The notes under the pieces were generated by a model that saw nothing but the letters and a program-made list of their open reading frames with translations, had not been told where the DNA came from and ran no database searches. A DNA stretch of 12,595 nt from a virus: UHGV virus genome UHGV-1677753, one strand, 5' to 3'. Numbering within the stretch: the stretch's first letter is position 1; the number at the start of each line of letters is the position of its first letter. A program made the position numbers and the translations under genes. Of this stretch, positions 399-12,595 are shown piece after piece.

Positions 399-430
399 AA
401 TGGAATCAGTAATTACACAGGAGGAATAAC

Positions 431-781
431 ATTCCGCAACGAACCCCAAAAGCCTGCCGTGTTCGCGGCTGCCGCCATACCACCACTGACCCGTCAGGCT
501 ATTGCGAAAGCCACAAAAGCGAAGGCTGGAAGCAATACAAACCTGGACAATCCCGTCATCAGCGCGGCTACGGTTCGAAGTGGGACAGTATCCGCGCGCG
601 TGTCCTGAAGCGTGACAAAGGCCTGTGTCAGTTATGTCTGCGTTCTGGTGTGGTGCGTGAGGCGAAAACTGTTGACCACATCATCCCTAAAGCGCATGGC
701 GGCACTGATGCTGACAGTAATCTGCAGAGTCTGTGCTGGCCGTGTCATAAGGCGAAGACGGCCCGTGAACGGTTAAAGTGA
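431..781 (+). CDS. HNH endonuclease, terminase-associated; start codon uncertain (no in-frame ATG/GTG/TTG, proposed ATT start at 431)
   Basis: Open frame from the TAA at 410-412 to the TGA at 779-781 translates to ...PKACRVRGCRHTTTDPSGYCESH...VDHIIPKAHGGTDADSNLQSLCWPCHKAKTARERLK, with paired Cys zinc-finger-like motifs and the HNH core (DH...N...CxxCH). It sits directly upstream of the terminase small subunit. Not in the ORF track because there is no canonical start. AGGAGG at 419-424 lies 6 nt upstream of ATT 431. Confidence 0.75.
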   Translation: MPQRTPKACRVRGCRHTTTDPSGYCESHKSEGWKQYKPGQSRHQRGYGSKWDSIRARVLKRDKGLCQLCLRSGVVREAKTVDHIIPKAHGGTDADSNLQSLCWPCHKAKTARERLK

Positions 782-807
782 TAATAATTCTCAACTGTCT
801 GAGGGGA

Positions 808-867
808 GGGGCGGGTCAAATCCCTGTGACCTGACGTCTTCCGGACTGCCCGCCCCATCGTTTTTTT
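808..867 (+). terminator. GC-rich dyad (GGGGCGGG ... CCCGCCCC) followed by a T7 run; intrinsic-terminator-like, or part of the cos site
   Basis: GGGGCGGG at 808-815 pairs with CCCGCCCC at 849-856 across a 33-nt loop, followed by TTTTTTT at 861-867. It lies in the HNH to terS intergenic region. The loop is long for a canonical terminator. Confidence 0.4.
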
Positions 868-906
868 ATACCCGCGAAAAATGAAAATTAACCAGGAGTG
901 CCGCAT

Positions 907-1392
907 ATGGCTGGAACGGCGGGGCGTTCCGGGCGTCGCCCCAAGCCAACGGCGCGCAAGGCGCTGGCCGGAAACCCCGGCAAGCGAGCCCTGAACAAAG
1001 ATGAACCTGTTTTTACGCCCATCAAAGGTGTTGAGCCACCGGAGTGGTTCGCTGAAGAAGATCTCCCTCTCGCCACGATCATGTGGCAACTGACAACCAA
1101 AGAACTCTGCGGTCAGGGCCTGCTGTGCGTGACTGACTTGGCGGTACTTGAGCGGTGGTGCGTGGCCTACGAGTTCTGGCGACGTGCCGTGAAAAATATT
1201 GCCAGACAGGGCAACACCATCACCGGTGCAATGGGTGGCATGGTCAAAAATCCGGAGCTGACCGCCAAAAAAGAACAGGAGTCCGAGATGAGCAGCACGG
1301 GGGCAATGCTCGGACTCGACCCCAGCAGCCGCCAGCGTCTGATTGGCCTGGCGGGGAAGAAGAAAGCCACTAACCCGTTTCTGACAATCTGA
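907..1392 (+). CDS. terS: Terminase small subunit (P27-like family)
   Basis: ORF track 898..1392. I place the start at ATG 907 ([30 protein letters not shown]...), with AGGAG at 894-898 about 8 nt upstream. The basic N-terminus and GNPGKR motif are typical of P27-type small terminases. Position is immediately upstream of terL. Confidence 0.85.
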
Positions 1393-1405
1393 AAATCATC
1401 GAATC

Positions 1406-3139
1406 ATGAGCCGGAAATCTTACCCCAACGTAAATGCTGCCAATCAGTATGCCCGGGATGTCGTGCGCGGAAAGATTGTGGCCTGCCAGTTTGTGATTCA
1501 GGCCTGCCAGCGCCATCTTGATGACCTGATGGCGGAAAAAAGTAAGTCGTTTCGTTACCGCTTCGACAAGGATCTGGCTGAACGGGCCGCCAAATTTATT
1601 CAGCTGTTGCCGCACACCAAGGGTGAGTGGGCATTTAAACGGATGCCCATCACGCTGGAGCCGTGGCAGCTCTTTGTGATCTGCTGCGCGTTTGGCTGGG
1701 TCAATAAAGGCTCCCGGCTGCGCCGCTTCCGTGAGGTGTATACCGAAATCCCCCGTAAGAACGGCAAATCGGCAATCTCTGCCGGTGTCGCCCTGTATTG
1801 TTTTGCCTGTGATAACGAGTTCGGCGCGGAAGTGTATTCCGGTGCCACGACGGAGAAACAGGCATGGGAAGTCTTTCGTCCGGCAAGACTGATGTGTAAA
1901 CGCACACCCATGCTGACGGAAGCGTTCGGGATTGAGGTTAACGCCTCAAACATGAACCGTCCGGAGGATGGTGCGCGTTTTGAACCGCTGATCGGTAACC
2001 CCGGTGATGGTTCATCACCCCACTGTGCGGTGGTGGATGAATATCACGAGCACGCCACAGATGCGCTTTACACCACGATGCTTACCGGGATGGGGGCGCG
2101 ACGTCAGCCACTGATGTGGGCTATCACTACCGCCGGGTACAACATTGAGGGGCCGTGCTACGACAAACGGCGGGAAGTCATCGAGATGCTCAACGGTTCG
2201 GTACCCAACGATGAACTGTTCGGGATCATCTATACCGTTGACGAAGGTGACGACTGGACCGACCCGCAGGTGCTGGAAAAAGCCAATCCAAATATTGGCG
2301 TGTCGGTTTATCGCGAATTTTTGTTAAGTCAGCAGCAGCGTGCGAAAAATAACGCCCGTCTGGCAAACGTCTTTAAAACAAAACACCTCAATATCTGGGT
2401 GTCGGCGCGTTCGGCGTATTTCAACCTGGTGAGCTGGCAGAGCTGCGAGGATAAATCACTGACTCTTGAGCAGTTCGAGGGGCAGCCGTGCATTCTGGCC
2501 TTTGACCTGGCGCGTAAGCTGGATATGAACAGCATGGCGCGACTTTATACCCGCGAGATTGACGGTAAAACGCATTACTACAGTGTGGCCCCGCGTTTCT
2601 GGGTACCGTATGACACGGTGTATAGCGTCGAGAAAAATGAAGATCGCCGGACAGCCGAACGCTTTCAGAAATGGGTGGAAATGGGCGTTCTGACCGTTAC
2701 CGATGGTGCAGAGGTGGATTATCGCTACATCCTCGAAGAGGCCAAAGCGGCGAACAAAATCAGCCCGGTCAGTGAGTCACCCATCGACCCTTTCGGAGCG
2801 ACCGGGCTGTCACATGACCTTGCTGATGAAGACCTGAATCCCGTTACTATCGTCCAGAACTTCGCCAATATGTCCGACCCGATGAAAGAGCTGGAGGCAG
2901 CGATTGAATCGGGACGCTTTCATCATGACGGCAATCCCATCATGACCTGGTGTATCGGCAATGTGGTCGGCAAAAACATGCCAGGTAACGATGATTTAGT
3001 GAAGCCCGTCAAAGAGCAGGCGGAAAACAAAATCGATGGTGCAGTTGCGCTGATTATGGCGGTTGGCAGAGCCATGCTGTACGAGAAAGAAGACATGCTG
3101 TCTGACCACATTGAGTCCTATGGGATCCGCTCGCTTTAA
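1406..3139 (+). CDS. terL: Terminase large subunit (ATPase plus nuclease)
   Basis: 577-aa ORF. It has a Walker A-like P-loop ([10 protein letters not shown]) and a Walker B-like motif ([10 protein letters not shown]). Size and position between terS and portal fit. Confidence 0.95.
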
Positions 3140-3150
3140 CTGAGGTAATT

Positions 3151-3333
3151 ATGATCATGCTGATTCTCGCGCCTCTGGTGGGCGTGCTGGGGGCGCTTTT
3201 GCTGGCGTATGGTGCCTGGCTGATTTATCCCCCGGCGGGGTTTGTTGTTGCCGGGGCGTTGTGTCTGTTCTGGTCGTGGCTGGTGGCGCGATATCTCGAC
3301 CGTACACAGTCGTCTGTCGGCGGAGGTAAATAG
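3151..3333 (+). CDS. Small hydrophobic protein with two predicted transmembrane helices (hypothetical)
   Basis: 60-aa [68 protein letters not shown] lies 4 nt upstream of ATG 3151. Its TAG stop (3331-3333) overlaps the portal GTG start. Confidence 0.5.
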
Positions 3334-4574
3334 TGTTCTTTTCGGGATTATTTCAACGAAAAAGTGACGCACCGGTGACCACGCCAGCAGAGCTGGCGGA
3401 TGCTATCGGGTTGTCCTACGACACCTATACCGGAAAGCAGATCAGCAGCCAGCGGGCCATGCGACTGACGGCGGTTTTTTCCTGTGTCAGGGTGCTGGCG
3501 GAGTCGGTCGGGATGTTGCCCTGCAACCTGTATCACCTGAACGGCAGTCTGAAGCAGAGAGCCGCTGGCGAACGTCTGCATAAGCTGATCTCCACGCATC
3601 CCAATGGCTATATGACGCCGCAGGAGTTCTGGGAGCTGGTGGTCACCTGTCTGTGCCTGCGGGGAAACTTTTACGCCTACAAAGTGAAAGCATTTGGCGA
3701 AGTGGCTGAACTGCTGCCCGTCGATCCCGGCTGTGTGGTACCGAAGCTTAACAGTAGCTGGGAGCCGGTCTATCAGGTCACATTCCCGGACGGCTCTACG
3801 GATGTACTGAGCCAGGAAGATATCTGGCATGTGCGCACGCTGACGCTGGACGGTCTGGTGGGGCTGAATCCCATCGCCTATGCCCGCGAGGCAATATCGC
3901 TGGCAGCTGCGACCGAAGAGCACGGGGCCAGACTGTTCAGCAATGGTGCGGTGACGTCCGGTGTGTTGCGTACAGAGCAGACGCTGTCGGATCAGGCTTA
4001 TGAGCGCCTGAAGAAAGATTTTGAGGAGCGTCACACCGGGCTTGGCAATGCTCACCGCCCGATGATCCTTGAGATGGGGCTGGACTGGAAGTCGATGGCG
4101 CTGAACGCCGAGGACAGCCAGTTCCTGGAAACCCGCAAGTTTCAGCTTGAAGAAATCTGTCGTCTGTTCCGGGTGCCGTTGCACATGGTGCAGAACACCG
4201 ATCGCGCCACCTTCAACAATATCGAAGAGCTGGGGCTGGGATTTATCAACTATTCACTGGTGCCGTATCTGACCCGCATCGAACAGCGGATCAACACCGG
4301 ACTGGTACGAAAAAGTAAGCAGGGCGTTTATTACGCCAAATTTAACGCCGGGGCGTTACTGCGCGGGGATATGAAGTCCCGTTTTGAAGCCTACGCCACC
4401 GGGATCAACTGGGGAATTTACTCTCCCAATGACTGCCGCGACCTGGAAGATATGAATCCGCGTCCCGGTGGTGATGTCTATCTCACACCGATGAACATGA
4501 CCACGAAACCCTCCGATGGCAGTAAAGCCGGTAAGCAGAAGGATAACGCCAATGCAGACGAAACAACGTCTTGA
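3333..4574 (+). CDS. Portal protein (HK97-like family)
   Basis: 413-aa ORF directly after terL and before the prohead protease. GTG start at 3333 with GGAGG at 3322-3326 (6-nt spacing). Size and synteny are typical of HK97-type portals. Confidence 0.92.
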   Translation: MFFSGLFQRKSDAPVTTPAELADAIGLSYDTYTGKQISSQRAMRLTAVFSCVRVLAESVGMLPCNLYHLNGSLKQRAAGERLHKLISTHPNGYMTPQEFWELVVTCLCLRGNFYAYKVKAFGEVAELLPVDPGCVVPKLNSSWEPVYQVTFPDGSTDVLSQEDIWHVRTLTLDGLVGLNPIAYAREAISLAAATEEHGARLFSNGAVTSGVLRTEQTLSDQAYERLKKDFEERHTGLGNAHRPMILEMGLDWKSMALNAEDSQFLETRKFQLEEICRLFRVPLHMVQNTDRATFNNIEELGLGFINYSLVPYLTRIEQRINTGLVRKSKQGVYYAKFNAGALLRGDMKSRFEAYATGINWGIYSPNDCRDLEDMNPRPGGDVYLTPMNMTTKPSDGSKAGKQKDNANADETTS

Positions 4575-5202
4575 TGTACCGCTGAGTCTGAAATCTGTCA
4601 GTGACTCCGGGGAGTTTGAAGGGTATGGCTCCGTCTTTGGTGTAAAGGACAGCCACGATGATGTGGTGATGTCCGGGGCATTTGCTGCTTCCCTGCGGGC
4701 GTGGAGTGACAGAAAAGCGTTACCTGCGCTGCTCTGGCAGCACCGCATGGATGAGCCCATCGGTGTTTACACCGAAATGAAGGAAGACGATGTCGGGCTT
4801 TACGTCAGGGGGCGGTTGCTCATTGATGATGATCCCCTGGCAAAACGCGCACATGCACACATGAAGGCCGGTTCGTTAACCGGCCTTTCTATTGGGTACG
4901 TCCTGAAAGACTGGGAATACGACCGGAGCAAAGAAGCCTTTCTGCTGAAAGAAATCGACCTCTGGGAAGTCAGCCTGGTGACGTTCCCGTCTAACGACGA
5001 GGCGCGGATCAGCGACGTCAAGAACGCACTGGCCCGCGGGGAAATCCCCGAACAGAAAAAAATCGAAAGAGTCCTGCGTGATGTCGGACTCTCCCGTACC
5101 CAGGCCAAAGCATTCATGGCCGGGGGCTATGGCGCACTGTCCCTGCGCGACGCTGAGGATGTGGGCTCTGCACTGAATGCACTGAAAAATCTGAACTTCT
5201 AA
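4552..5202 (+). CDS. Prohead (capsid maturation) protease, HK97-like
   Basis: ORF track 4516..5202. I prefer ATG 4552 (MQTKQRLDVPLSLKSVSDSGEFEGYGSVFG...) because AAGGA at 4539-4543 precedes it. Sits between portal and major capsid protein. About 216 aa. Confidence 0.88.
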   Translation: MQTKQRLDVPLSLKSVSDSGEFEGYGSVFGVKDSHDDVVMSGAFAASLRAWSDRKALPALLWQHRMDEPIGVYTEMKEDDVGLYVRGRLLIDDDPLAKRAHAHMKAGSLTGLSIGYVLKDWEYDRSKEAFLLKEIDLWEVSLVTFPSNDEARISDVKNALARGEIPEQKKIERVLRDVGLSRTQAKAFMAGGYGALSLRDAEDVGSALNALKNLNF

Positions 5203-5216
5203 TCAGGAGAAATACG

Positions 5217-6422
5217 ATGGCGGTTGATATTAAAGATGTCGAACAGGTCGCGCAGGAGCTGCAGCAGAAGTTTGACGACTTCAAAGCAAAGAACGACAAG
5301 CGCGTGGATGCGATTGAGCAGGAAAAAGGCAAACTTGCCGGGCAGGTGGAAACCCTGAACGGGAAACTCAGCGAGCTGGAAAACCTCAAAAGCGATCTTG
5401 AAAAAGAGCTGCTTGAGCTGAAACGTCCGGCAGGTGGTGCGCAAAATAAACTGGCCACCGAGCATAAAGAAGCGTTTGTGGGCTTCCTGCGTAAAGGCCG
5501 TGAAGATGGTCTGCGCGATCTGGAGCGCAAGGCATTACAGGTGGGCACCGATGAAGACGGCGGCTATGCCGTGCCGGAAGCACTGGATCGCAACATTCTC
5601 ACCCTGCTGAAAGATGAAGTGGTGATGCGCCAGGAAGCCACGGTGATCACCGTTGGTGGTTCCGACTACAAAAAACTGGTGAATCTGGGCGGCACGGCTT
5701 CCGGATGGGTTGGCGAGACTGACGCGCGCTCCCAGACTGCCACCTCAAAACTGGGCCTGATTGAACCTTTCATGGGGGAAATCTACGGTAACCCGCAGGC
5801 CACCCAGAAAATGCTGGATGATGCCTTTTTCAACGTGGAAGCATGGATCAACAGCGAGCTGGCAACCGAATTTGCCGAACAGGAAGAAATTGCCTTTACC
5901 ACCGGCGATGGTACCAAGAAGCCGAAAGGGTTCCTGGCGTATGAATCCACGGATGAAACCGACAAGGTCCGGGCGTTCGGCAAACTTCAGCATATTGTAT
6001 CCGGCGAAGCGACCGCGGTGACCGCAGACGCCATTATCAAACTGATTTACACGCTGCGTAAGGCACACCGCACTGGCGCGAAGTTCATGATGAACAACAA
6101 CAGCCTGTTTGCCATCCGTCTGCTGAAAGACACCGAGGGTAACTATCTGTGGCGTCCGGGGCTGGAGCTGGGGCAGCCGTCCTCTCTGGCGGGTTACGGT
6201 ATCGCTGAAAACGAACAGATGCCGGATATCGCCGCTGATGCGAAAGCCATTGCATTTGGTAACTTCAAACGGGGTTACACCATCGTTGACCGTATCGGCA
6301 CCCGCATTCTGCGTGACCCGTACACCAATAAACCGTTTGTCGGTTTTTATACCACCAAGCGCACCGGCGGGATGCTGGTCGATTCGCAGGCCATCAAACT
6401 GCTGAAGATTGCAGCGGCGTAA
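5217..6422 (+). CDS. Major capsid protein, HK97 fold, with N-terminal coiled-coil delta (scaffold-like) domain
   Basis: 401-aa ORF with AGGAG before ATG 5217. The N-terminal ~100 aa are coiled-coil-like (KFDDFKAKNDKRVDAIEQEKGKLAGQVETLNGKLSELENLKSDLEKELLELK), as in HK97-type capsid proteins that carry their own scaffold domain. No separate scaffold gene is present, consistent with that. Confidence 0.93.
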   Translation: MAVDIKDVEQVAQELQQKFDDFKAKNDKRVDAIEQEKGKLAGQVETLNGKLSELENLKSDLEKELLELKRPAGGAQNKLATEHKEAFVGFLRKGREDGLRDLERKALQVGTDEDGGYAVPEALDRNILTLLKDEVVMRQEATVITVGGSDYKKLVNLGGTASGWVGETDARSQTATSKLGLIEPFMGEIYGNPQATQKMLDDAFFNVEAWINSELATEFAEQEEIAFTTGDGTKKPKGFLAYESTDETDKVRAFGKLQHIVSGEATAVTADAIIKLIYTLRKAHRTGAKFMMNNNSLFAIRLLKDTEGNYLWRPGLELGQPSSLAGYGIAENEQMPDIAADAKAIAFGNFKRGYTIVDRIGTRILRDPYTNKPFVGFYTTKRTGGMLVDSQAIKLLKIAAA

Positions 6423-6429
6423 TCACTCA

Positions 6430-6457
6430 GGGGCGCGGAACCGCGCCCCCTGTTCTG
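6430..6457 (+). terminator. Stem-loop (GGGGCGCGG-AA-CCGCGCCCC) followed by TGTTCT; putative intrinsic terminator/attenuator after the capsid gene
   Basis: Perfect 9-bp GC-rich inverted repeat at 6430-6438 / 6441-6449, starting 8 nt after the capsid stop codon. The downstream T-tract is weak (CTGTTCTG). Confidence 0.5.
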
Positions 6458-6471
6458 ACGGGTGAAGAATC

Positions 6472-6672
6472 ATGATCCTGAAACAAGATCTGAAATGGTC
6501 ACCGGACGGTATGCGTGTTGAGGTCATTCGGGCCGGTGAGTATGACGACGGGGCGCTTCCTGCCCGGGTGCAGGAGATTGCACTTCAGGCCGGGTTAGCA
6601 GAGCGCGGAACCAGTGCAAAAAGCAGTAAAGCGACAAAAGAGAAAAAAGCCACGACCAGTAAAGAGGGCTGA
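6472..6672 (+). CDS. Hypothetical small protein with Lys/Ser/Thr-rich C-terminal tail
   Basis: 66-aa ORF MILKQDLKWSPDGMRVEVIRAGEYDDGALPARVQEIALQAGLAERGTSAKSSKATKEKKATTSKEG. ATG 6472 follows GGTGA. Its stop overlaps the ribosome-binding site and start of the next gene. Confidence 0.5.
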   Translation: MILKQDLKWSPDGMRVEVIRAGEYDDGALPARVQEIALQAGLAERGTSAKSSKATKEKKATTSKEG

Positions 6673-6674
6673 GT

Positions 6675-6998
6675 ATGCTTCTGACAATGGAAGAGATTAA
6701 AGCCCAACTCCGGCTGGATGAGGATTTCGATGCTGATGACCGCCATCTGCAACTGCTGGCCTGTGCGGCACAAAAGCGGACGGAAACGTATCTGAACCGG
6801 AAGCTCTATGCACCGGATGAAACCATTCCGGACAGCGATCCGGACGGGCTGCACCTGCCGGATGATATTCGTCTGGGGATGCTGATGCTTATCAGCCATT
6901 TTTACGAAAACCGCTCGTCGGTTACGGAAGTGGAGAAACTCGACATGCCGCAGAGTTTTGGCTGGCTTGTCGGCCCGTACAGGTACTTTCCGCAATGA
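6675..6998 (+). CDS. Head-tail connector protein (gp6-like)
   Basis: 107-aa ORF MLLTMEEIKAQLRLDEDFDADDRHLQLLACAAQKRTETYL..., matching the gp6-like connector N-terminal pattern as I recall it. AGAGGG precedes ATG 6675. Position after the capsid gene. Confidence 0.78.
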   Translation: MLLTMEEIKAQLRLDEDFDADDRHLQLLACAAQKRTETYLNRKLYAPDETIPDSDPDGLHLPDDIRLGMLMLISHFYENRSSVTEVEKLDMPQSFGWLVGPYRYFPQ

Positions 6999-7405
6999 AA
7001 ATTCGTCAGGCGCAGACCAGCGCAACCTACATTCTGCCGGACCCCGGTGAACTGAATAAACGCGTCCTGATCCGCCAGCGGGTGGATATGCCCGCGGATA
7101 ACTTTGGCGTGGAGTCTCAATACCCGGTTACGTTCCGGACATGGGCGAAGGTTATCCAGACCAGTGCCACCACCTGGCAGGAAACCGCGCAGACCGGGGA
7201 CGCCATCACCCATTACATCACCATTCGTTACCGCCGGGGGATCACTGCTGATTATGAGGTGGTCTGTGATGACAGTGTGTACCGGGTGAAACGTCAGCGT
7301 GATCTGAACGGGGCGCGGCGCTTTCTGCTGCTGGAGTGTACGGAGCTGGGCGAATGTAGGCAGAGTCACGGAGGCAGCAATGGCGACTCCCTTTTTTCAC
7401 GTTGA
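6995..7405 (+). CDS. Head closure / head-tail adaptor protein
   Basis: 136-aa ORF whose start overlaps the previous stop (ATGA at 6995-6998). Size and position are typical of the head closure protein in HK97/SPP1-like modules. Confidence 0.7.
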   Translation: MKIRQAQTSATYILPDPGELNKRVLIRQRVDMPADNFGVESQYPVTFRTWAKVIQTSATTWQETAQTGDAITHYITIRYRRGITADYEVVCDDSVYRVKRQRDLNGARRFLLLECTELGECRQSHGGSNGDSLFSR

Positions 7406-7886
7406 TGTTCAGCAGCCCGCCGAGATGCGCTTTAACCGCGCCCGTGTCCGGCGGGCGTTTGTCACGATTGGGCAGCGTCATATGCGTGATGCCCGTCGGC
7501 TGGTGATGCGCCGTGCGCGGTCGGCACCGGGTGAAAACCCCGGTTATCAGACCGGACGCCTGGCTCGTTCGATTGGTTATATGGTGCCGAGAGCCAGTAA
7601 AAAGCGAGCCGGTTTTATGACACGCATTGCCCCTAACCAGCGCAACGGGAAGGGGAACCGGATGATCTCTGGTGACTTCTATCCGGCGTTTCTGTTTTTT
7701 GGTGTCCGGGGAGGAGCAAAACGTCGTCGTAGTCATCATCGTGGTGCATCCGGTGGCAGCGGCTGGCGACTGGCTCCACGTAATAACTTCATGGTGGAAA
7801 CGCTTGAAAAGAACCGCAGCTGGACACGCTATTTTCTGGCGCGGGAATTGCGTAAATCACTGAAGCCGGAGCGACGACACAGATGA
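7380..7886 (+). CDS. HK97 gp10-like head-tail joining/neck protein, strongly basic (Arg-rich)
   Basis: 168-aa ORF with GGAGG 5 nt before ATG 7380. It contains PGENPGYQTGRLARSIGY, resembling the conserved TG-L--SI motif of the gp10 family as I recall it. It carries a Gly/Arg/His-rich segment (GGAKRRRSHHRGASGGSGW). Confidence 0.65.
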   Translation: MATPFFHVDVQQPAEMRFNRARVRRAFVTIGQRHMRDARRLVMRRARSAPGENPGYQTGRLARSIGYMVPRASKKRAGFMTRIAPNQRNGKGNRMISGDFYPAFLFFGVRGGAKRRRSHHRGASGGSGWRLAPRNNFMVETLEKNRSWTRYFLARELRKSLKPERRHR

Positions 7887-8443
7887 AACTGACGCCTGTT
7901 ATTGCTGCGCTGCGTGCCCGCTGCCCGTATTTTGAAAACCGGGTGGCAGGCGCGGCACAGTTCAAAAATCTGCCGGAGGTCGGAAAGCTGAGACTCCCGG
8001 CGGCGTATGTGGTACCGGGTGATGACTCTCCGGGAGAAAACAAAAGCCAGACCGACTACTGGCAGGAGCTGAAAGAGGGCTTCTCCGTGGTTGTCATACT
8101 AAGTAACGGGCGTGATGAGCGCGGTCAGTTTGCCTCGTATGATGTGGTGGACGATGTCCGGCAGATGCTCTTTAAGGCCCTGCTGGGCTGGAACCCGGAA
8201 GCGTGCGGTAACCCGATTACCTATGACGGCGGCACGCTGCTGGATCTGAATCGTCATGAGCTGATTTATCAGTTCGATTTTTCGGTCATCAGCGAGCTGA
8301 CTGAAGACGATACCCGCCAGCAGGATGATCTGAACAGTCTGGATGAACTGCAAACGCTGGCGATTGATGTTGATTATCTCGAGCCCGGTAACGGGCCTGA
8401 CGGCGATATCGAACATCACACCGAAATAACTCTTCCTTCCTGA
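7883..8443 (+). CDS. Putative neck/tail terminator-like protein of the contractile-tail module (hypothetical)
   Basis: 186-aa ORF whose start overlaps the previous stop (ATGA). Located between the head-completion genes and the tail sheath. Acidic C-terminus. The functional call is from position only. Confidence 0.55.
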   Translation: MKLTPVIAALRARCPYFENRVAGAAQFKNLPEVGKLRLPAAYVVPGDDSPGENKSQTDYWQELKEGFSVVVILSNGRDERGQFASYDVVDDVRQMLFKALLGWNPEACGNPITYDGGTLLDLNRHELIYQFDFSVISELTEDDTRQQDDLNSLDELQTLAIDVDYLEPGNGPDGDIEHHTEITLPS

Positions 8444-8451
8444 GGATCCTC

Positions 8452-8622
8452 ATGTTTGTCAAACCTGTTAAAGGGCGGTCAGTTCCTGACCCTGCCCGCG
8501 GCGACCTTTTGCCCGCCGAAGGGCGAAATGTTGACGAGAACAACTACTGGCTGCGCCGTGAAGTAGCGGGTGATATCCGGCGCGTGAATAAAAAGGTGAA
8601 CACCGATGACGATAAGCTTTAA
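8452..8622 (+). CDS. Small 56-aa protein immediately upstream of, and overlapping, the tail sheath gene (hypothetical)
   Basis: ATG 8452 is preceded by GAGGA (8442-8446, 5-nt spacing). Translates MFVKPVKGRSVPDPARGDLLPAEGRNVDENNYWLRREVAGDIRRVNKKVNTDDDKL and ends at TAA 8620-8622, overlapping the sheath start by 17 nt. Absent from the ORF track because it is under 60 aa. From memory, small conserved proteins occupy this position in Mu-like tail modules. Confidence 0.5.
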   Translation: MFVKPVKGRSVPDPARGDLLPAEGRNVDENNYWLRREVAGDIRRVNKKVNTDDDKL

Positions 8623-10102
8623 CACCATTCCGTCGAATACGCTGGTTCCGCTGTTTTATGCGGAAATGGATAATCAGGCGGCGAATACTGCACAGGACAG
8701 CGGAGCATCGCTGCTGATTGGTCATGCCAATAACGGTGCAGAGATTGTTGCCAACAGTCTGGTACTGATGCCGTCGGCAGACTATGCACGCCAGATTTGT
8801 GGTGCGGGAAGTCAGCTGGCGCGTATGGTTGAGGCTTATCGCCAGACCGACCCGTTTGGCGAGCTGTATGTGATTGCCGTTCCTGAATCCACAGGCGCGG
8901 CGGCAACGGTTACGCTGACGGTGACCGGGGCGGCAACCGAAACCGGCACGGTGAATGTCTATGTGGGACGTACCCGCGTGCAGGCTCCGGTGACCAACGG
9001 CGATAACGTCACGACGATTGCCAGCAGTATCAAAGATGCCATCAATGCCGTTCCGGCCCTGCCGTTTACGGCTTCATCTTCGGCAGGCGTGGTCACACTG
9101 ACCGCGCGTCATAAGGGGCTTTGCGGGAATGAAATTCCTGTCAGCCTCAATTACTACGGCTTTGGTGGGGGCGAAGTGCTGCCAGCGGGCGTACAGATTG
9201 CCGTGGCGACGGGTACCGCCGGAACGGGTGCTCCGGTTCTCACCGGCGCGGTGGCTGCAATGGCGGATGAGCCGTTTGATTATATCGGTCTGCCGTTCAA
9301 CGACACGGCCTCCGTTAACACGCTGGTGACCGAGATGAACGATACCAGCGGTCGCTGGAGCTATGCGCGTCAGCTGTATGGTCATGTGTATACGGCAAAG
9401 ATCGGCACGCTGTCAGAACTGGTGACCGCAGGTGACCAGTTTAACCAGCAGCACATTACCCTGGCGGGGTACGAAAAAGAGACCCAGACGCCTGCCGACG
9501 AACTGGCGGCAAGCCGTACCGCCCGCGCAGCGGTGTTTATTCGCAACGATCCGGCACGTCCCACGCAGACCGGTGAGCTGGTGGGTATGCTGCCTGCGCC
9601 GAAGGGGAAACGGTTCACGATGACCGAACAACAGACCCTGCTGTCTCATGGCGTGGCAACGGCGTATGTCGAAAGCGGGGTACTGCGCATTCAGCGTGAT
9701 GTCACCACGTACAGGAAAAACGCTTACGGGATTGCGGATAACAGCTACCTAGACAGTGAGACTCTGCATACCAGCTCGTATGTACTGCGCAAACTGAAAT
9801 CCGTCATTACCAGTAAGTACGGGCGTCACAAGCTTGCCAGTGACGGTACCCGCTTTGGTCCCGGTCAGGCGATTGTCACCCCGGCGGTGATCAAAGGGGA
9901 ACTGCTGGCAACCTACCGTCAGCTTGAGCGTGCGGGGATCGTGGAAAACTACGAACTGTTTAAGCAGTACCTGGTTGTGGAGCGTGATGCCAGCGATCCG
10001 AACCGCCTGAACACGCTGTTCCCGCCTGACTATGTTAACCAGTTGCGTGTCTTTGCCGTGGTTAACCAGTTCCGTCTTCAGTATTCAGAGGAGTCTGCAT
10101 AA
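8606..10102 (+). CDS. Contractile tail sheath protein
   Basis: 498-aa ORF directly followed by a 118-aa tube gene, a frameshifted chaperone and a tape measure gene. AAGGTG precedes ATG 8606. Size and synteny fit a sheath protein. Confidence 0.85.
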   Translation: MTISFNTIPSNTLVPLFYAEMDNQAANTAQDSGASLLIGHANNGAEIVANSLVLMPSADYARQICGAGSQLARMVEAYRQTDPFGELYVIAVPESTGAAATVTLTVTGAATETGTVNVYVGRTRVQAPVTNGDNVTTIASSIKDAINAVPALPFTASSSAGVVTLTARHKGLCGNEIPVSLNYYGFGGGEVLPAGVQIAVATGTAGTGAPVLTGAVAAMADEPFDYIGLPFNDTASVNTLVTEMNDTSGRWSYARQLYGHVYTAKIGTLSELVTAGDQFNQQHITLAGYEKETQTPADELAASRTARAAVFIRNDPARPTQTGELVGMLPAPKGKRFTMTEQQTLLSHGVATAYVESGVLRIQRDVTTYRKNAYGIADNSYLDSETLHTSSYVLRKLKSVITSKYGRHKLASDGTRFGPGQAIVTPAVIKGELLATYRQLERAGIVENYELFKQYLVVERDASDPNRLNTLFPPDYVNQLRVFAVVNQFRLQYSEESA

Positions 10103-10458
10103 TGGCCCGTATCGGGGGAACCTGTTATTTCAAAATTGACGGTCAGCAGCTATCGCTGACCGGCGGCATTGAGGTGCCCATGAACAGGACGGTCAATGAT
10201 GACATCATCGGCCTGGACGGTTCAGTGGACCGCAAGGAAACTCACCGTGCGCCTTATGTCAAAGGGACCTTCAAGGTGCCGAAGAATTTTCCGGTGAGCA
10301 AAATCACCTCGTCTGATGAGATGACTATCACTGCCGAGCTGGCGAACGGTCAGGTCTATGTATTGTCGTCCGCCTGGCTGCACGGAGAAGCGAACCATAA
10401 TGCCGAAGAAGGCACGGTTGATCTTGAGTTCCACGGTGAAGAAGGGGATTACCAGTAA
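10102..10458 (+). CDS. Tail tube protein
   Basis: 118-aa ORF. Its start overlaps the sheath stop (TAATG) with GAGGAG 7 nt upstream. Position between sheath and chaperone. Confidence 0.8.
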   Translation: MARIGGTCYFKIDGQQLSLTGGIEVPMNRTVNDDIIGLDGSVDRKETHRAPYVKGTFKVPKNFPVSKITSSDEMTITAELANGQVYVLSSAWLHGEANHNAEEGTVDLEFHGEEGDYQ

Positions 10459-10727
10459 TGAAAGAGCTTGAGTTAAAGAAACCGATTATCGCTCATGGTG
10501 AGACACTCTCCGTACTGGAGTTTGATGAACCCACCGGGAAGGATGTCCGCGAGCTGGGGTATCCCTACCAGATGAATCAGGATGAGTCCGTCAGACTTCT
10601 GGCGCATGTGGTGTCGAAATACATTGTGCGGCTGGCGAAAGTGCCGCAAAGCTCTGTCGACCAGATGTCTCCGGCAGACCTGAATGCAGCGGCGTGGCTT
10701 GTGGCTGGTTTTTTCCTCCAGGCCTGA
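10458..10727 (+). CDS. Tail assembly chaperone, short (G-like) form
   Basis: 89-aa ORF starting at the TAATG overlap with the tube gene. It lies immediately upstream of the tape measure gene and ends 12 nt after a TTTTTTC slippery heptamer. Confidence 0.8.
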   Translation: MKELELKKPIIAHGETLSVLEFDEPTGKDVRELGYPYQMNQDESVRLLAHVVSKYIVRLAKVPQSSVDQMSPADLNAAAWLVAGFFLQA

Positions 10728-10876
10728 CGGCTGAATACCTCACTGATCGCTTCTTTGACTGCGCCAGCTACTGGCGCATTAATCCCTTCGAATTGCTGAA
10801 TATGCCGATCAGTGAAATTCCCTTGCTGGTCAGTCAGGCAAACAGGATAGAGCAGGAGAAACGCACACATGGCTGA
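10458..10876 (+). CDS. Tail assembly chaperone, long (GT-like) form produced by -1 programmed ribosomal frameshift at 10709-10715
   Basis: The -1 frame is open from the slip site to TGA 10874-10876 (ORF track 10694..10876: ...FFPPGLTAEYLTDRFFDCASYWRINPFELLNMPISEIPLLVSQANRIEQEKRTHG). The slippery sequence T_TTT_TTC is in the correct zero-frame phase (codons TTT 10710-10712, TTC 10713-10715). The extended product ends overlapping the tape measure start. Confidence 0.65.
10709..10715 (+). other. Slippery heptamer T_TTT_TTC (X_XXY_YYZ) for -1 programmed frameshifting
   Basis: Read directly at 10709-10715, in phase with the chaperone zero frame and 4 codons before its stop. Confidence 0.65.
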
Positions 10877-12536
10877 ATTTGAGCTTAAGGCGTTGATCAC
10901 CGGTGTCGACAGGCTTTCTCCCGCGCTGTCGAAAATGCAAAAGAAAATCCGGGGATTTAAACGCCAGGCGGAAGAAGCGTCACAGGGTGGGCTGGCGCTT
11001 GGTGGCGGACTGGCAGCGGGTCTGACGCTTTCCCTGAAATCTTATGCCGATCAGGAAAACGCCGCCACCGGGCTGAAAGTTGCCATGATGGATGCGAACG
11101 GTGAGGTCGGAAAGAGCTTTCAGGACATCAATAAACTGGCTATTGGTCTGGGTAACCAGCTACCCGGTACAACGGCTGATTTTCAGAACATGATGCAGAT
11201 GCTGGTGCGTCAGGGGATCCCGGCAGAAAACATTCTTGGCGGTGTGGGTAAAGCGACAGCTTATCTTGCGGTACAACTGAAAAAAACACCGGAAGCGGCT
11301 GCCGAGTTTGCCGCAAAGATGCAGGATGCTACCGGAACGGCGTCAGAAGACATGATGGGGCTGTTCGACACTATCCAGAAGGCGTTTTATCTGGGCGTTG
11401 ACGATACCAACATGTTGTCCTTCTTCACTAAAACCAGTTCTGTTCTGAAGATGGTGAACAAGGACGGTCTTCAGGCTGCACAGAGCCTTGCCCCCATCAG
11501 CGTCATGATGGATCAGATGGGGATGAACGGGGAGTCGGCAGGTAATGCCCTGCGAAAAGTTATCCAGTCCGGATTAAGCGTTAAGAAAATCAGGGACGTT
11601 AATAAAGTTATGGCCCGCCAGAAACTCGGGGTACAGCTCGATTTTACTGACGGCAAAGGGAGTTTTGGCGGTCTTGATAACATGTTTAAGCAACTGGCAA
11701 AGCTGCGAAAATTGACCGACGTTAAGCGAACCGGTGTACTTAAGGCAATATTTGGTGATGATGCCGAAACCCTTCAGGTGGTCAATGCTCTGATCGATAA
11801 AGGAAAGGATGGTTACGATCAGATCCAGCAGAAGATGAATAAACAGGCCAGCCTGAATAAACGTGTTCAGGCACAGCTTGGTACGCTGTCCAACCTGTGG
11901 GAGGCAATGACGGGGACCGCAACTAACGGTCTTGCAGCTATTGGCGGCGCATTTTCTGGTGACGCTAAAAATATCACGCAATGGCTGGGGGAGTTGGGGG
12001 AAAAATTCACGAAGTTTGCGGATGAAAATCCCCGGGTTATTCGCGGCGTCGTCGGGCTTGCTGCCGGTCTTGCGATTCTGAAACTGGGATTGATGGGCGT
12101 GGGCGGTGCCATCAGCATTGTCAGCAGGATCATGTCGATGACGCCGATTGGCATGATTGCGACGGCGATAGCCCTGGCTGCGGGATTAATTATCACTAAC
12201 TGGGATGTTGTCGGACCTTATTTCAAGAAGCTCTGGGAAACCATTGGTCCTTATTTTGAGGCTGGCTGGGAACTCCTTAAGAAAGTTTTTGCCTGGTCGC
12301 CGCTGGGGATGGTGATCAATAACTGGGGGCCGGTTGTTAAGTGGTTTCAGGATATGTGGGACAAGCTGAAGCCAATTATTGAGTGGTTTACCGACAGTTC
12401 CGGTGACACGGTCGATGCCATTAACTCTGCGCAGTGGGGCGCGGGTGCTTATGATGCTTATGGGACGGGAATACCGGCACGGGGATACACTCCTTATCCG
12501 GCGGTGGATCCGGCTCAGTACCGCATAATACGATAA
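10869..12536 (+). CDS. Tail tape measure protein
   Basis: 555-aa ORF immediately after the G/GT chaperone pair. Ala/Gly-rich and largely helical in character, with hydrophobic segments near the C-terminus and periodic Trp/Phe repeats (WDVVGPYFKKL / WETIGPYFEAG). Its start overlaps the GT stop. Confidence 0.85.
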   Translation: MAEFELKALITGVDRLSPALSKMQKKIRGFKRQAEEASQGGLALGGGLAAGLTLSLKSYADQENAATGLKVAMMDANGEVGKSFQDINKLAIGLGNQLPGTTADFQNMMQMLVRQGIPAENILGGVGKATAYLAVQLKKTPEAAAEFAAKMQDATGTASEDMMGLFDTIQKAFYLGVDDTNMLSFFTKTSSVLKMVNKDGLQAAQSLAPISVMMDQMGMNGESAGNALRKVIQSGLSVKKIRDVNKVMARQKLGVQLDFTDGKGSFGGLDNMFKQLAKLRKLTDVKRTGVLKAIFGDDAETLQVVNALIDKGKDGYDQIQQKMNKQASLNKRVQAQLGTLSNLWEAMTGTATNGLAAIGGAFSGDAKNITQWLGELGEKFTKFADENPRVIRGVVGLAAGLAILKLGLMGVGGAISIVSRIMSMTPIGMIATAIALAAGLIITNWDVVGPYFKKLWETIGPYFEAGWELLKKVFAWSPLGMVINNWGPVVKWFQDMWDKLKPIIEWFTDSSGDTVDAINSAQWGAGAYDAYGTGIPARGYTPYPAVDPAQYRIIR

Positions 12537-12595
12537 TTATTACGTGCGAAATAGTCTTCACGTTCACGATAGTAAGAAGTATTGTATTTGCGAAT

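What the first reader, a model, noticed from the sequence alone, without database searches (positions are those of the whole stretch)
3151..3333. Small two-helix membrane protein inserted between terminase large subunit and portal
HK97-type head modules normally run terL directly into portal. Here a 60-aa strongly hydrophobic ORF (two predicted transmembrane helices, short charged C-terminal tail) with its own ribosome-binding site sits between them, with its stop overlapping the portal start. Small membrane proteins embedded in morphogenesis operons are unusual; it could be a moron. It could equally be a chance ORF in the terL to portal spacer.
Basis: partly seen in the sequence, partly recalled or inferred. 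Interest (0 to 1): 0.45.

Follow-up and report, generated by a model that had tools for sequence, protein, structure and literature searches.

The report
Portal-coupled small membrane protein YmfR
The 60-codon ORF is a real, already annotated gene (YmfR) for a small two-helix membrane protein; it belongs to a large, uncharacterised phage family that nearly always sits directly in front of the portal gene, so it looks like a head-assembly gene rather than a moron or a chance ORF.

Summary
Window 3151..3333 (+) encodes a 60-aa protein with two hydrophobic helices, its own GAGG ribosome-binding site, and a stop that shares one base with the portal start (TAGTG).

It is not new as an object. The protein is identical to E. 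coli K-12 e14 YmfR and matches SfII_03 and PHROG 502 "membrane protein". It matches no Pfam, NCBIfam, PADLOC or PDB entry, and I found no paper on its function.

It is neither a chance ORF nor a moron:
- **Selection:** the hairpin core is under purifying selection (dN/dS 0.12-0.21 at dS about 1).
- **Family size:** a profile finds 1376 clusters (50% identity), reaching Alpha-, Beta- and Gammaproteobacteria and Firmicutes.
- **Synteny:** in 68 of 69 non-redundant loci an HK97-type portal gene follows directly, and in 63 of those 68 the stop and start overlap by 1 or 4 nt.
- **Inheritance:** it travels with the portal, not the terminase (distance correlation 0.96 versus 0.74).
- **Wider sample:** similar two-helix ORFs occur in 7 of 16 unrelated phages with HK97-type portals, some unannotated, as also in SfV. 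HK97 itself has none.

Function is inferred only. I favour an inner-membrane accessory of portal or prohead assembly, loosely like T4 gp40. The most conserved residues lie in the membrane and the outer turn, which a simple portal-binding model does not explain.

The parts
1406..3139 (+). Terminase large subunit gene (terL), directly upstream
   Evidence: Pfam TerL_ATPase and TerL_nuclease; SfII_02. Stop TAA at 3137-3139, 11 nt before the small ORF.
3142..3146 (+). Shine-Dalgarno-like GAGGT for the small ORF
   Evidence: Read from the sequence; 4-5 nt before ATG 3151. A second in-frame ATG lies at 3157.
3151..3333 (+). ymfR / SfII_03: 60-aa two-helix membrane protein (PHROG 502 family)
   Evidence: ORF. 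Protein identical to K-12 YmfR. PHROG 502, E = 2.5e-28. dN/dS 0.12-0.21 on the core. AF2 hairpin, pLDDT 82.
3154..3225 (+). Helix 1 (residues 2-25), with conserved G11, G14, G21 and W23
   Evidence: Hydropathy; AF2 H2-25; invariant or near-invariant columns.
3226..3240 (+). Tight turn Y26-P27-P28-A29-G30; family consensus [IV]-Y-x-P-A-G-[FY]; predicted to face the periplasm
   Evidence: Alignments. Loop variants and positive-inside count: K+R per protein 0.11 in the loop versus 2.29 (N-tail) and 2.10 (C-tail).
3235..3288 (+). Helix 2, membrane part (residues 29-46), with invariant G35 and conserved C38, W41-S42-W43 in Enterobacterales
   Evidence: Hydropathy; AF2 H29-56; alignments.
3289..3330 (+). 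Variable, mildly basic C-terminal tail (residues 47-60), predicted cytoplasmic; the last codons double as the portal ribosome-binding site
   Evidence: Tail dN/dS about 0.6 or higher. Only the GG is conserved, and it corresponds to GGAGG.
3322..3326 (+). Portal Shine-Dalgarno GGAGG, embedded in ymfR codons 58-59
   Evidence: Read from the sequence; conserved as GGAGG or GGGGG in enterobacterial relatives (listing).
3331..3335 (+). Stop/start overlap TAGTG (ymfR TAG, portal GTG, one shared base)
   Evidence: The same 1-nt overlap (TGATG, TAATG or TAGTG) occurs in 58 of 68 non-redundant family loci, and a 4-nt ATGA overlap in 5 more.
3333..4574 (+). HK97-type portal gene, the constant downstream partner
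   Evidence: Pfam Phage_portal, E = 1.1e-107; SfII_04. Portal follows the small ORF in 68 of 69 non-redundant loci.
3169..3200 (+). Terminator-like hairpin plus TTTT inside the ORF (annotated as a putative terminator in SfII); probably incidental
   Evidence: 12 pairs, 7 G-C. Predicted folds differ in Mangrovibacter, Erwinia and Citrobacter homologues.

Best explanation
Shown: this is ymfR, a real late-operon gene. It encodes a 60-aa helical hairpin whose charge pattern fits both ends in the cytoplasm and a 3-5 residue turn (Y-x-P-A-G) facing the periplasm. It belongs to a very large phage and prophage family (PHROG 502). That family is part of the head module, not cargo. It sits immediately upstream of an HK97-type portal gene, its stop codon overlaps the portal start, and it is inherited with the portal when terminases are exchanged.

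Inferred, expression: ribosomes finishing ymfR probably reinitiate on the portal, so the two proteins would be made together, late and at low level.

Inferred, function: the protein inserts into the inner membrane, probably as an oligomer packed through its conserved small residues (G11/G14/G21, G30/G35). There it acts as a non-virion accessory for the portal, tethering or nucleating the portal ring or prohead (or the packaging motor) at the membrane. That is the kind of job the membrane chaperone gp40 does for the T4 portal gp20.

Confidence is above 0.9 for the gene-level statements (real, conserved, portal-coupled, not a moron). The figure below applies to the functional part.
For: Real gene:
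- Core dN/dS is 0.12-0.21 at dS 0.9-1.6; the tail is nearly free.
- K-12 YmfR is identical in protein, with 4 synonymous differences.

Family:
- 167, 1230 and 1245 clusters at 90% identity in three searches.
- 1376 clusters at 50% identity with E <= 1e-3.
- All 76 diverse members tested hit PHROG 502.

Topology:
- AF2 hairpin.
- K+R per protein: 2.29 in the N-tail, 0.11 in the loop, 2.10 in the C-tail.

Portal linkage:
- Distant members in Reyranella, Shinella, Rhodoferax, Lysobacterales and Ruminococcaceae all abut a portal that is only 29-39% identical. In L022 and L029-L031 terL is not adjacent.
- 68 of 69 non-redundant loci are followed by a portal; the overlap is 1 nt in 58 and 4 nt in 5.

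Co-inheritance:
- Distance correlation is 0.96 for YmfR-portal and 0.74 for YmfR-terL.
- 366 pairs have portal <5% divergent and terL >30% divergent; their mean YmfR distance is 0.088.
- L334 versus the window: terL 39%, YmfR 91%, portal about 100% identity.
- Converse case, SfV: terL is about 98% identical in nucleotides, the portal 27.6% in protein, and the small ORF is divergent.

Late expression: e14 ymfR transcript rises with the other e14 genes under SOS (log2 4.5; PMC10012262).

Probably not a virion protein: Omega gp12, the counterpart in mycobacteriophage Omega, is absent from virion mass spectrometry while portal gp13 is present (PMC3706429). No PDB chain matches the family.

Precedent: the T4 portal initiator is membrane-bound and depends on the viral chaperone gp40 (PMC9958956).
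Against: - No experiment addresses function, and no direct evidence of the protein exists (no Ribo-seq or proteomics found).
- The best conserved residues are intramembrane or in the predicted periplasmic turn. Both cytoplasmic tails are variable. Direct contact with a cytoplasmic portal is therefore not obviously encoded, and the partner may be another membrane protein.
- The family is absent from HK97 itself and from 9 of 16 sampled HK97-type modules, so it is not a universal requirement for this portal type.
- Membrane-bound prohead initiation has not been described for HK97-like phages, as far as I know.
- Small hydrophobic proteins are easily missed by virion mass spectrometry, so the Omega result is weak.
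- Adjacency and coupling could also serve only to set timing and dose.
Confidence: 0.4

Rival explanations
1. Moron or host-takeover gene, as the PHROG category implies. The membrane protein would act on the host or on competing phages (superinfection exclusion, like HK97 gp15, or another fitness factor). Its place in front of the portal would only give it late, low expression.
For: PHROG 502 is filed under 'moron, auxiliary metabolic gene and host takeover'. Small two-helix inner-membrane proteins are a common format for exclusion proteins (my own knowledge). The conserved residues are in the membrane and periplasmic turn, not facing the cytoplasm. The family is patchy among HK97-type modules. 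GC is 0.60 versus 0.54-0.56 in the neighbours.
Against: - No promoter-like site lies upstream, and the internal terminator-like hairpin is not conserved.
- The same position and stop/start overlap hold across phyla.
- It co-evolves with the portal.
- There is no PADLOC match.
- The higher GC is explained by the Gly/Ala/Leu/Pro-rich composition.
- Morons are typically sporadic between close relatives; this gene is not.
Confidence: 0.13
2. Virion-internal or portal-associated hydrophobic protein. It would be packaged at the portal vertex, for example as a plug or an ejection or membrane-channel protein used at the next infection.
For: Tight genetic coupling to the portal. In lambda, the small gene between A and B (W) encodes a portal-binding head-completion protein (my own knowledge). 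Some ejection proteins of other phages are membrane-active.
Against: The Omega counterpart gp12 is not detected in virions, while portal and minor proteins are (PMC3706429). No chain in any solved structure matches the family. The positive-inside charge pattern and helix lengths of 18-24 residues fit a normal bilayer hairpin.
Confidence: 0.1
3. Late membrane-permeabilising or lysis-timing protein (holin-, antiholin- or viroporin-like). It would change membrane state during morphogenesis.
For: Two transmembrane helices with a short basic C-terminal tail resemble class II holin architecture. Conserved glycine spacing suggests homo-oligomer packing. One family member gives a sub-threshold hit to Phage_holin_10 (E = 0.003).
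Against: SfII has a complete separate lysis cassette: class I holin S, lysin R, Rz and Rz1 at 37481-38820. No holin family passes its threshold. The position next to the portal, not next to an endolysin, is the conserved feature.
Confidence: 0.08
4. Pure translational leader. Only the act of translating the ORF matters (to deliver ribosomes to the portal start); the peptide is irrelevant. At the extreme, it is a chance ORF.
For: The 1-nt stop/start overlap is nearly universal. In many alphaproteobacterial loci no strong Shine-Dalgarno precedes the portal ATG (sequences).
Against: There is strong amino-acid conservation with saturated synonymous change. Motifs are invariant across phyla. A leader would not need two conserved transmembrane helices. 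Coupling is compatible with the main explanation rather than a rival to it.
Confidence: 0.03

Closest known systems
E. coli K-12 e14 prophage protein YmfR (b1150) = Shigella phage SfII_03 / ST64B Sb3 / phiP27 'putative integral membrane protein'; PHROG 502
   Same: Protein sequence identical to K-12 YmfR. The window is 99.9% identical in DNA to SfII and SfIV in this region. It has the same neighbours and matches PHROG 502 at E = 2.5e-28.
   Different: Nothing in sequence. In e14 the flanking terL and portal are truncated pseudogenes, whereas here both are full length. No function is recorded for any member.
Bacteriophage T4 gp40, the membrane-associated chaperone needed to assemble the membrane-bound gp20 portal initiator
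   Same: A phage-encoded, non-virion factor that connects portal assembly with the inner membrane (PMC9958956). That is the role proposed here.
   Different: No sequence relationship was tested or is expected. T4 gene 40 is not adjacent to gene 20 (my own knowledge), whereas YmfR is coupled at its stop codon to the portal. The T4 portal belongs to a different family from the HK97 type. This is a functional analogy only.
Lambda gpW (head-tail joining protein W), encoded between A (terL) and B (portal)
   Same: A small gene in the same slot between terL and portal. Several database records even label the YmfR ORF 'head-tail joining protein W'.
   Different: No Pfam gpW match. YmfR is a hydrophobic helical hairpin, whereas gpW is a soluble protein that binds the filled head (my own knowledge). 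The label is a positional mis-annotation.
HK97 gp15, a moron-encoded inner-membrane superinfection-exclusion protein
   Same: A small prophage-encoded inner-membrane protein embedded in a morphogenesis region (my own knowledge). This is the model behind the 'moron' reading.
   Different: gp15 is a sporadic insert with its own expression signals in the tail region. YmfR has no promoter-like site, is coupled to the portal, and is conserved across phyla.
'Membrane protein' genes between terL and portal in other phages: Mycobacterium phages Omega gp12 and Klein gp11, Burkholderia phi644-2 gp3, Vibrio K231 gp2, Geobacillus NIIg9.7 gp03
   Same: Same slot, same size (52-67 aa), two hydrophobic helices with a short turn, overlapping or abutting the portal start. 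The family HMM scores are 32 bits (phi644-2), 27.7 (Ralstonia YO168_1), 17.4 (Klein) and 14.8 (Vibrio K231).
   Different: They lack the Y-x-P-A-G turn. The Pseudomonas, Geobacillus and Clostridium examples are similar in architecture only (HMM E >= 0.003 in a small search). Common descent for those is therefore unproven.

Membership tests
YmfR / PHROG 502 small membrane protein family | Significant profile match to the family | tested here: met
   PHROG 502, E = 2.5e-28, residues 1-55 against profile positions 3-57 of 58. Protein identical to K-12 YmfR.
YmfR / PHROG 502 small membrane protein family | Two hydrophobic helices joined by a tight [IV]-Y-x-P-A-G-[FY] turn, with conserved G14, G21, W23 and G35 | tested here: met
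   Alignments A1, A2, A4 and A5; AF2 hairpin.
YmfR / PHROG 502 small membrane protein family | Located directly upstream of, and overlapping, an HK97-type portal gene | tested here: met
   TAGTG overlap at 3331-3335. Family-wide, 68 of 69 loci are followed by a portal and 63 of 68 overlap it.
Moron | Own promoter and terminator, forming an independent transcription unit | tested here: not met
   No promoter-like site on the + strand between 2640 and 3900. The only + strand hairpins lie inside the ORF and are not conserved. These are consensus scans only.
Moron | Sporadic presence: absent from otherwise close relatives, not syntenic over long evolutionary distance | tested here: not met
   Present in all close relatives carrying this portal and in distant phyla at the same position. 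Tracks the portal.
Moron | Atypical base composition relative to its neighbours | tested here: inconclusive
   GC is 0.60 versus 0.54-0.56. This is accounted for by the Gly/Ala/Leu/Pro-rich protein; GC3 (0.67) is like the portal's (0.68).
Moron | Expressed from the repressed prophage | not testable with these tools
   The only data found show e14 ymfR mRNA rising together with the other e14 genes under SOS (PMC10012262).
Holin | Encoded in a lysis cassette next to an endolysin | tested here: not met
   The SfII lysis cassette (S, R, Rz, Rz1) lies at 37481-38820, far from this gene. The family's constant neighbour is the portal.
Holin | Match to a described holin family | tested here: not met
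   The window protein has no Pfam hit at E <= 0.01. Of 76 members, one gives a sub-threshold Phage_holin_10 hit.
Holin | Timed lethal membrane hole formation | not testable with these tools
   Needs expression experiments.
Lambda gpW head-tail joining protein (label used in some records) | gpW family profile match and a soluble fold | tested here: not met
   No Pfam match. Hydrophobic hairpin, GRAVY 1.22.
T4 gp40-type portal assembly chaperone (functional class) | Sequence or structural homology to gp40 | not tested
   The gp40 sequence was not compared. A generic hairpin fold gives no informative structural matches.
T4 gp40-type portal assembly chaperone (functional class) | Required for portal ring or prohead initiation at the membrane; absent from virions | not testable with these tools
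   Indirect only: the Omega gp12 counterpart was not found in the virion proteome (PMC3706429).
Known anti-phage defence or exclusion proteins (PADLOC) | Profile match | tested here: not met
   0 families at E <= 1.

The most novel reading that the evidence does not exclude
YmfR/PHROG-502 proteins, and the architecturally similar small two-helix ORFs in front of other HK97-type portals, are a widespread and so far unrecognised class of membrane-embedded morphogenetic factors. They would be made in fixed proportion to the portal by termination-reinitiation, and they would nucleate or anchor the single portal vertex (or the packaging motor) at the inner membrane. Membrane-initiated head assembly, known from T4, would then be common among HK97-like phages of Gram-negative, Gram-positive and actinobacterial hosts.
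Probability: 0.3. Interest if true: 0.7.

Novelty: already known. Interest (0 to 1): 0.45.

Why it matters
The gene itself is an annotated protein of unknown function, so the finding as stated is not new. What the follow-up adds is a well-defined open problem in a tractable system. A 60-aa membrane hairpin is coupled at its stop codon to the portal gene in more than a thousand sequence clusters across several bacterial phyla, and nothing is known about what it does.

How one, and only one, portal vertex is built into an HK97-type prohead, and where in the cell that happens, is not settled. A conserved membrane partner of the portal would bear directly on that question. It could be tested with E. 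coli or Shigella phages (SfII, SfIV, phiP27) using simple genetics.

Practical consequences:
- PHROG's 'moron' category for this family is probably misleading.
- The 'head-tail joining protein W' labels are wrong.
- Several phage records miss the gene or misplace the portal start (SfV, phiCT453B, D14C).

Tried and rejected
- **Family and structure libraries gave nothing beyond PHROG 502.** Pfam, NCBIfam, PADLOC, PDB sequence search and Foldseek were tried. A two-helix hairpin is too generic for fold search; the best hit was a V-ATPase subunit at E = 5.
- **Literature.** 'ymfR' appears only in gene lists, deletion tables and one transcript table. Six further phrase searches for a small membrane protein between terminase and portal found no functional study.
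- **EF-P-dependent stalling at Y-P-P as a regulatory device: rejected.** The first Pro is variable across the family (IYEPA, IYHPA, IYRPA and others).
- **Internal rho-independent terminator (annotated in SfII) acting as an attenuator before the portal: rejected as a family feature.** The hairpin is not kept in Mangrovibacter, Erwinia or Citrobacter homologues.
- **Portal N-terminal M-x-F-F-S-x-L-F motif as the YmfR contact: rejected.** Similar N-termini occur in portals that lack the small ORF.
- **Scan with the HK97 portal:** it returned only relatives at least 96% identical, so it was uninformative.
- **A 55-sequence diverse alignment was too divergent for the search for related loci.** It was replaced by a degenerate DNA motif scan. 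That scan selects for the motif, so motif conservation among those loci is partly by construction. The synteny result is not.
- **A complex prediction with the portal could not be run** with the single-chain tool.

Full report
**What is in the window.** The window is the head and tail module of an SfII/SfIV-type Shigella/E. coli prophage. It is 99.9% identical to SfII and SfIV around the finding and 97.6% identical to SfII over window 782-12519. The genes run terS 898..1392, terL 1406..3139, the small ORF 3151..3333, portal 3333..4574, S78 protease, then HK97-fold capsid protein.

The ORF encodes [60 protein letters not shown]. Two hydrophobic stretches stand out: Kyte-Doolittle 19-residue means of 2.67 for residues 1-19 and 1.81 for residues 28-46, with GRAVY 1.22. 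GAGGT lies 4-5 nt before the ATG. The stop TAG shares its G with the portal GTG. The portal's GGAGG lies within codons 58-59, which explains the 'GGGK' ending.

**It is an already named gene.** RefSeq annotates the homologous ORF in E. coli genomes as ymfR, 'protein YmfR'. 1592 of 5426 complete genomes match the 701-nt region around it. The K-12 e14 copy encodes exactly the same protein and differs at 4 synonymous sites. SfII annotates it as SfII_03, 'putative integral membrane protein'. It matches PHROG 502, 'membrane protein', at E = 2.5e-28. No Pfam, NCBIfam or PADLOC model matches, and no PDB chain matches the family profile. In the searchable literature ymfR appears only in gene lists, plus one table in which its mRNA rises with the rest of e14 during an SOS response.

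**It is a real protein-coding gene.** I compared the window with Mangrovibacter, Erwinia and Citrobacter prophages. Codons 1-49 give dN/dS of 0.12-0.21 at dS 0.9-1.6. Codons 50-60 are nearly unconstrained, at about 0.6 or more.

Enterobacterial homologues down to 58% identity are nearly all 59-61 aa long. They keep P8, G11, G14, L17, L18, G21, W23, I25-Y26-P27, G30, G35, C38-L39 and W41-S42, plus the terminal GG that is the portal ribosome-binding site.

AlphaFold2 with 76 family sequences predicts a helical hairpin: H2-25, turn 26-28, H29-56, pLDDT 82. Across 148 cluster representatives, K+R per protein is 2.29 before helix 1, 0.11 in the turn and 2.10 after helix 2. By the positive-inside rule this gives an N-in/C-in topology with the turn facing the periplasm.

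**The family is large and tied to the portal.**
- A pattern scan of one genome per species found relatives outside the Enterobacterales, in Reyranella, Shinella, Enhydrobacter, Rhodoferax, a Lysobacterales MAG and Ruminococcaceae MAGs.
- There the neighbouring portal is only 29-39% identical to the window's and terL about 21-25%, yet the small ORF still abuts the portal. In L022 and L029-L031 terL is 0.7-2 kb away while the small ORF stays on the portal.
- A profile of enterobacterial plus Reyranella-type members finds 1376 clusters (50% identity) at E <= 1e-3 among 1.84 billion representatives. Their median length is 63 aa.
- The consensus is a basic N-tail, then (R)D-x-x-G-x-x-G-x-x-L-[VI]-S-Y-G-A-W-L-I-Y-x-P-A-G-F-I-V-x-G-x-L-L, then a basic C-tail.
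- All 76 diverse members tested hit PHROG 502, and none reaches any Pfam threshold.

A degenerate DNA motif scan of IMG/VR gave 120 further loci. Pooling these with the genome loci and removing redundancy leaves 69 small ORFs with at least 300 nt of downstream sequence. 68 of them are followed by an ORF matching a portal HMM I built from the loci. The stop and the portal start overlap by exactly 1 nt (TGATG, TAATG or TAGTG) in 58, and by 4 nt (ATGA) in 5. The one exception, L028, looks like a rearranged element that has an S78-type protease but no portal. The motif scan selects for the motif itself, so conservation of the turn among those loci is partly by construction. The synteny is not.

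**It belongs to the portal's module, not the terminase's.** I compared 76 non-redundant terL/YmfR/portal triplets.
- Pairwise distances of YmfR correlate with those of the portal at r = 0.96 and with terL at r = 0.74.
- In 366 pairs the portals differ by <5% and the terminases by >30%. The mean YmfR distance in those pairs is only 0.088.
- A concrete case is E. coli GPEC606 (L334): terL 39%, YmfR 91% and portal about 100% identical to the window.
- The converse case is SfV. Its terL is about 98% identical in nucleotides up to window 3058, but it carries a different portal (27.6% identity). In front of that portal is an unannotated 53-aa two-helix ORF, MKSLIADVIGLAGFGLLTCGVYLQFGMAPALILSGALLLVGALAMARRGTRAA. 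This ORF scores 30.6 bits against the family HMM.

**How general is the arrangement?** HK97 itself runs terL straight into the portal. I then sampled 16 INPHARED phages whose portals are 24-39% identical to the window's, chosen without reference to the small ORF.
- Seven have a 52-67 aa ORF with two hydrophobic helices between terL and portal: Mycobacterium phage Klein gp11, Vibrio K231, Burkholderia phi644-2 gp3, Ralstonia YO168_1, Pseudomonas D14C, Geobacillus NIIg9.7 gp03 and Clostridium phiCT453B (unannotated).
- Four of the seven are detectably related to the family (14.8-32 bits); the other three are similar in architecture only.
- Nine have nothing there.

**What it is not.**
- *Not a chance ORF:* see the selection and conservation evidence above.
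- *Not a moron by the usual criteria.* There is no promoter-like site upstream. The hairpin that SfII annotates as a terminator lies inside the ORF and is not conserved. Synteny and portal coupling are near-universal, and GC3 is like the portal's.
- *Not the phage's holin.* SfII has S, R, Rz and Rz1 elsewhere, and no holin family matches.
- *Not lambda gpW,* despite that label in some records. There is no profile match, and the fold class is quite different.
- *Not merely a translational leader,* because the peptide itself is under selection.
- *Not a proline-stalling device* in any family-wide sense, because the first Pro of the turn is variable.

**Most likely mechanism.**

Shown: this is a late-operon gene whose stop overlaps the portal start, encoding a conserved bilayer-type hairpin that is co-inherited with the portal.

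Inferred:
- Termination-reinitiation makes portal synthesis depend on, and scale with, ymfR translation.
- The hairpin inserts into the inner membrane and packs, with itself or with another membrane protein, through its conserved small residues.
- It serves the portal or prohead step as a non-virion accessory. The only documented precedent is T4, where the portal initiator is membrane-bound and depends on the viral chaperone gp40 (PMC9958956).

Weak support for 'non-virion': Omega gp12, the counterpart in mycobacteriophage Omega, is missing from a virion proteome that contains the portal (PMC3706429).

The main difficulty is that the cytoplasmic tails, the only parts that could reach a cytoplasmic portal ring, are the variable parts. 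The invariant residues lie in the membrane and in the outer turn. That fits a membrane partner or a self-assembled ring better than a simple portal-binding peptide, and it keeps the exclusion and viroporin rivals alive. I put the functional model at about 0.4 and the gene-level conclusions above 0.9.

**Verdict.** The finding is real but already annotated: identical to YmfR, and a member of PHROG 502. The 'moron or chance ORF' interpretation is not supported. The interest lies in the family. It is very large, spans several phyla, is portal-coupled and has not been studied, and it can be tested directly in E. coli and Shigella phages.

Noticed in passing
L235 (SfV NC_003444) 2289-2450; annotated portal start at 2392: SfV has an unannotated 53-aa two-helix ORF between orf2 (terL) and orf3 (portal). 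It starts in an ATGA overlap with the terL stop and scores 30.6 bits against the family HMM. The annotated portal start overlaps it in another frame and is probably too far upstream; a start near 2436 would give an N-terminus (LLDALFRSKS) like the window's portal.
   Followed up: partly
L332 (Clostridium phage phiCT453B) 684-875; L329 (Pseudomonas phage vB_PaeS-D14C) 727-891: phiCT453B has an unannotated 63-aa two-helix ORF in the 190-nt 'gap' between terL and portal. In D14C the 54-aa two-helix ORF is labelled 'Phage portal protein' and the real portal is labelled 'preconnector protease C', so the annotation has shifted by one gene.
   Followed up: partly
window 3151-3333; records ON470603, ON470584, PQ793804, ON470580: Several phage records call this ORF 'head-tail joining protein W'. 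This is a positional analogy with lambda A-W-B. There is no gpW profile match, and the protein is a hydrophobic hairpin.
   Followed up: yes
window 419-781: The HNH endonuclease ORF upstream of terS (91% identical to SfII_58) has ATT at 431-433 where SfII has ATG. AGGAGG at 419-424 is correctly spaced. In this frame there is no ATG, GTG or TTG before 650. So the gene either uses a rare ATT start or has lost its start codon.
   Followed up: partly
window 10869-12595: The tape-measure ORF (10869..12536) leaves homology with SfII and with E. coli prophages after 12519 and ends about 57 codons early. The last 76 nt of the window match nothing next to this gene in complete E. coli genomes. This suggests an insertion or deletion junction, so the prophage may be defective.
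   Followed up: partly
window 3169-3200: A terminator-like hairpin (12 pairs, 7 G-C) followed by TTTT lies inside ymfR, and SfII annotates it as a putative rho-independent terminator. The predicted fold is not conserved in more distant homologues, so it is probably a by-product of GC-rich Gly/Ala/Leu codons.
   Followed up: yes
L337 (E. coli K-12 MG1655 e14) 604-2341: In the defective e14 prophage, ymfR is intact and encodes an identical protein, while the flanking terL and portal are truncated pseudogenes and the portal remnant is fused to a baseplate J remnant.
   Followed up: partly
L012 (Shigella flexneri SFBU0723, second copy) 4001-4179: One of the two copies in this Shigella genome has a 1-nt deletion that frameshifts ymfR, while the neighbouring terL and portal remain 98-99% identical and full length.
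   Followed up: no
L003 (MAG 'Bacillota bacterium' JAEWTL010000102); OR844959 'Enterococcus phage Efm 3-10' (1764 nt): These sequences are attributed to Firmicutes but are 95-100% identical to this enterobacterial prophage region. They are probably contamination or mis-binning rather than real host range.
   Followed up: no
L028 (alphaproteobacterial MAG JBGOXX010000014) 534-749: This is the only family member not followed by a portal. Downstream are ORFs of 125 and 227 aa of unknown function and then what looks, by eye, like an S78-type protease (no profile search was run). It may be a rearranged or decayed head module.
   Followed up: partly
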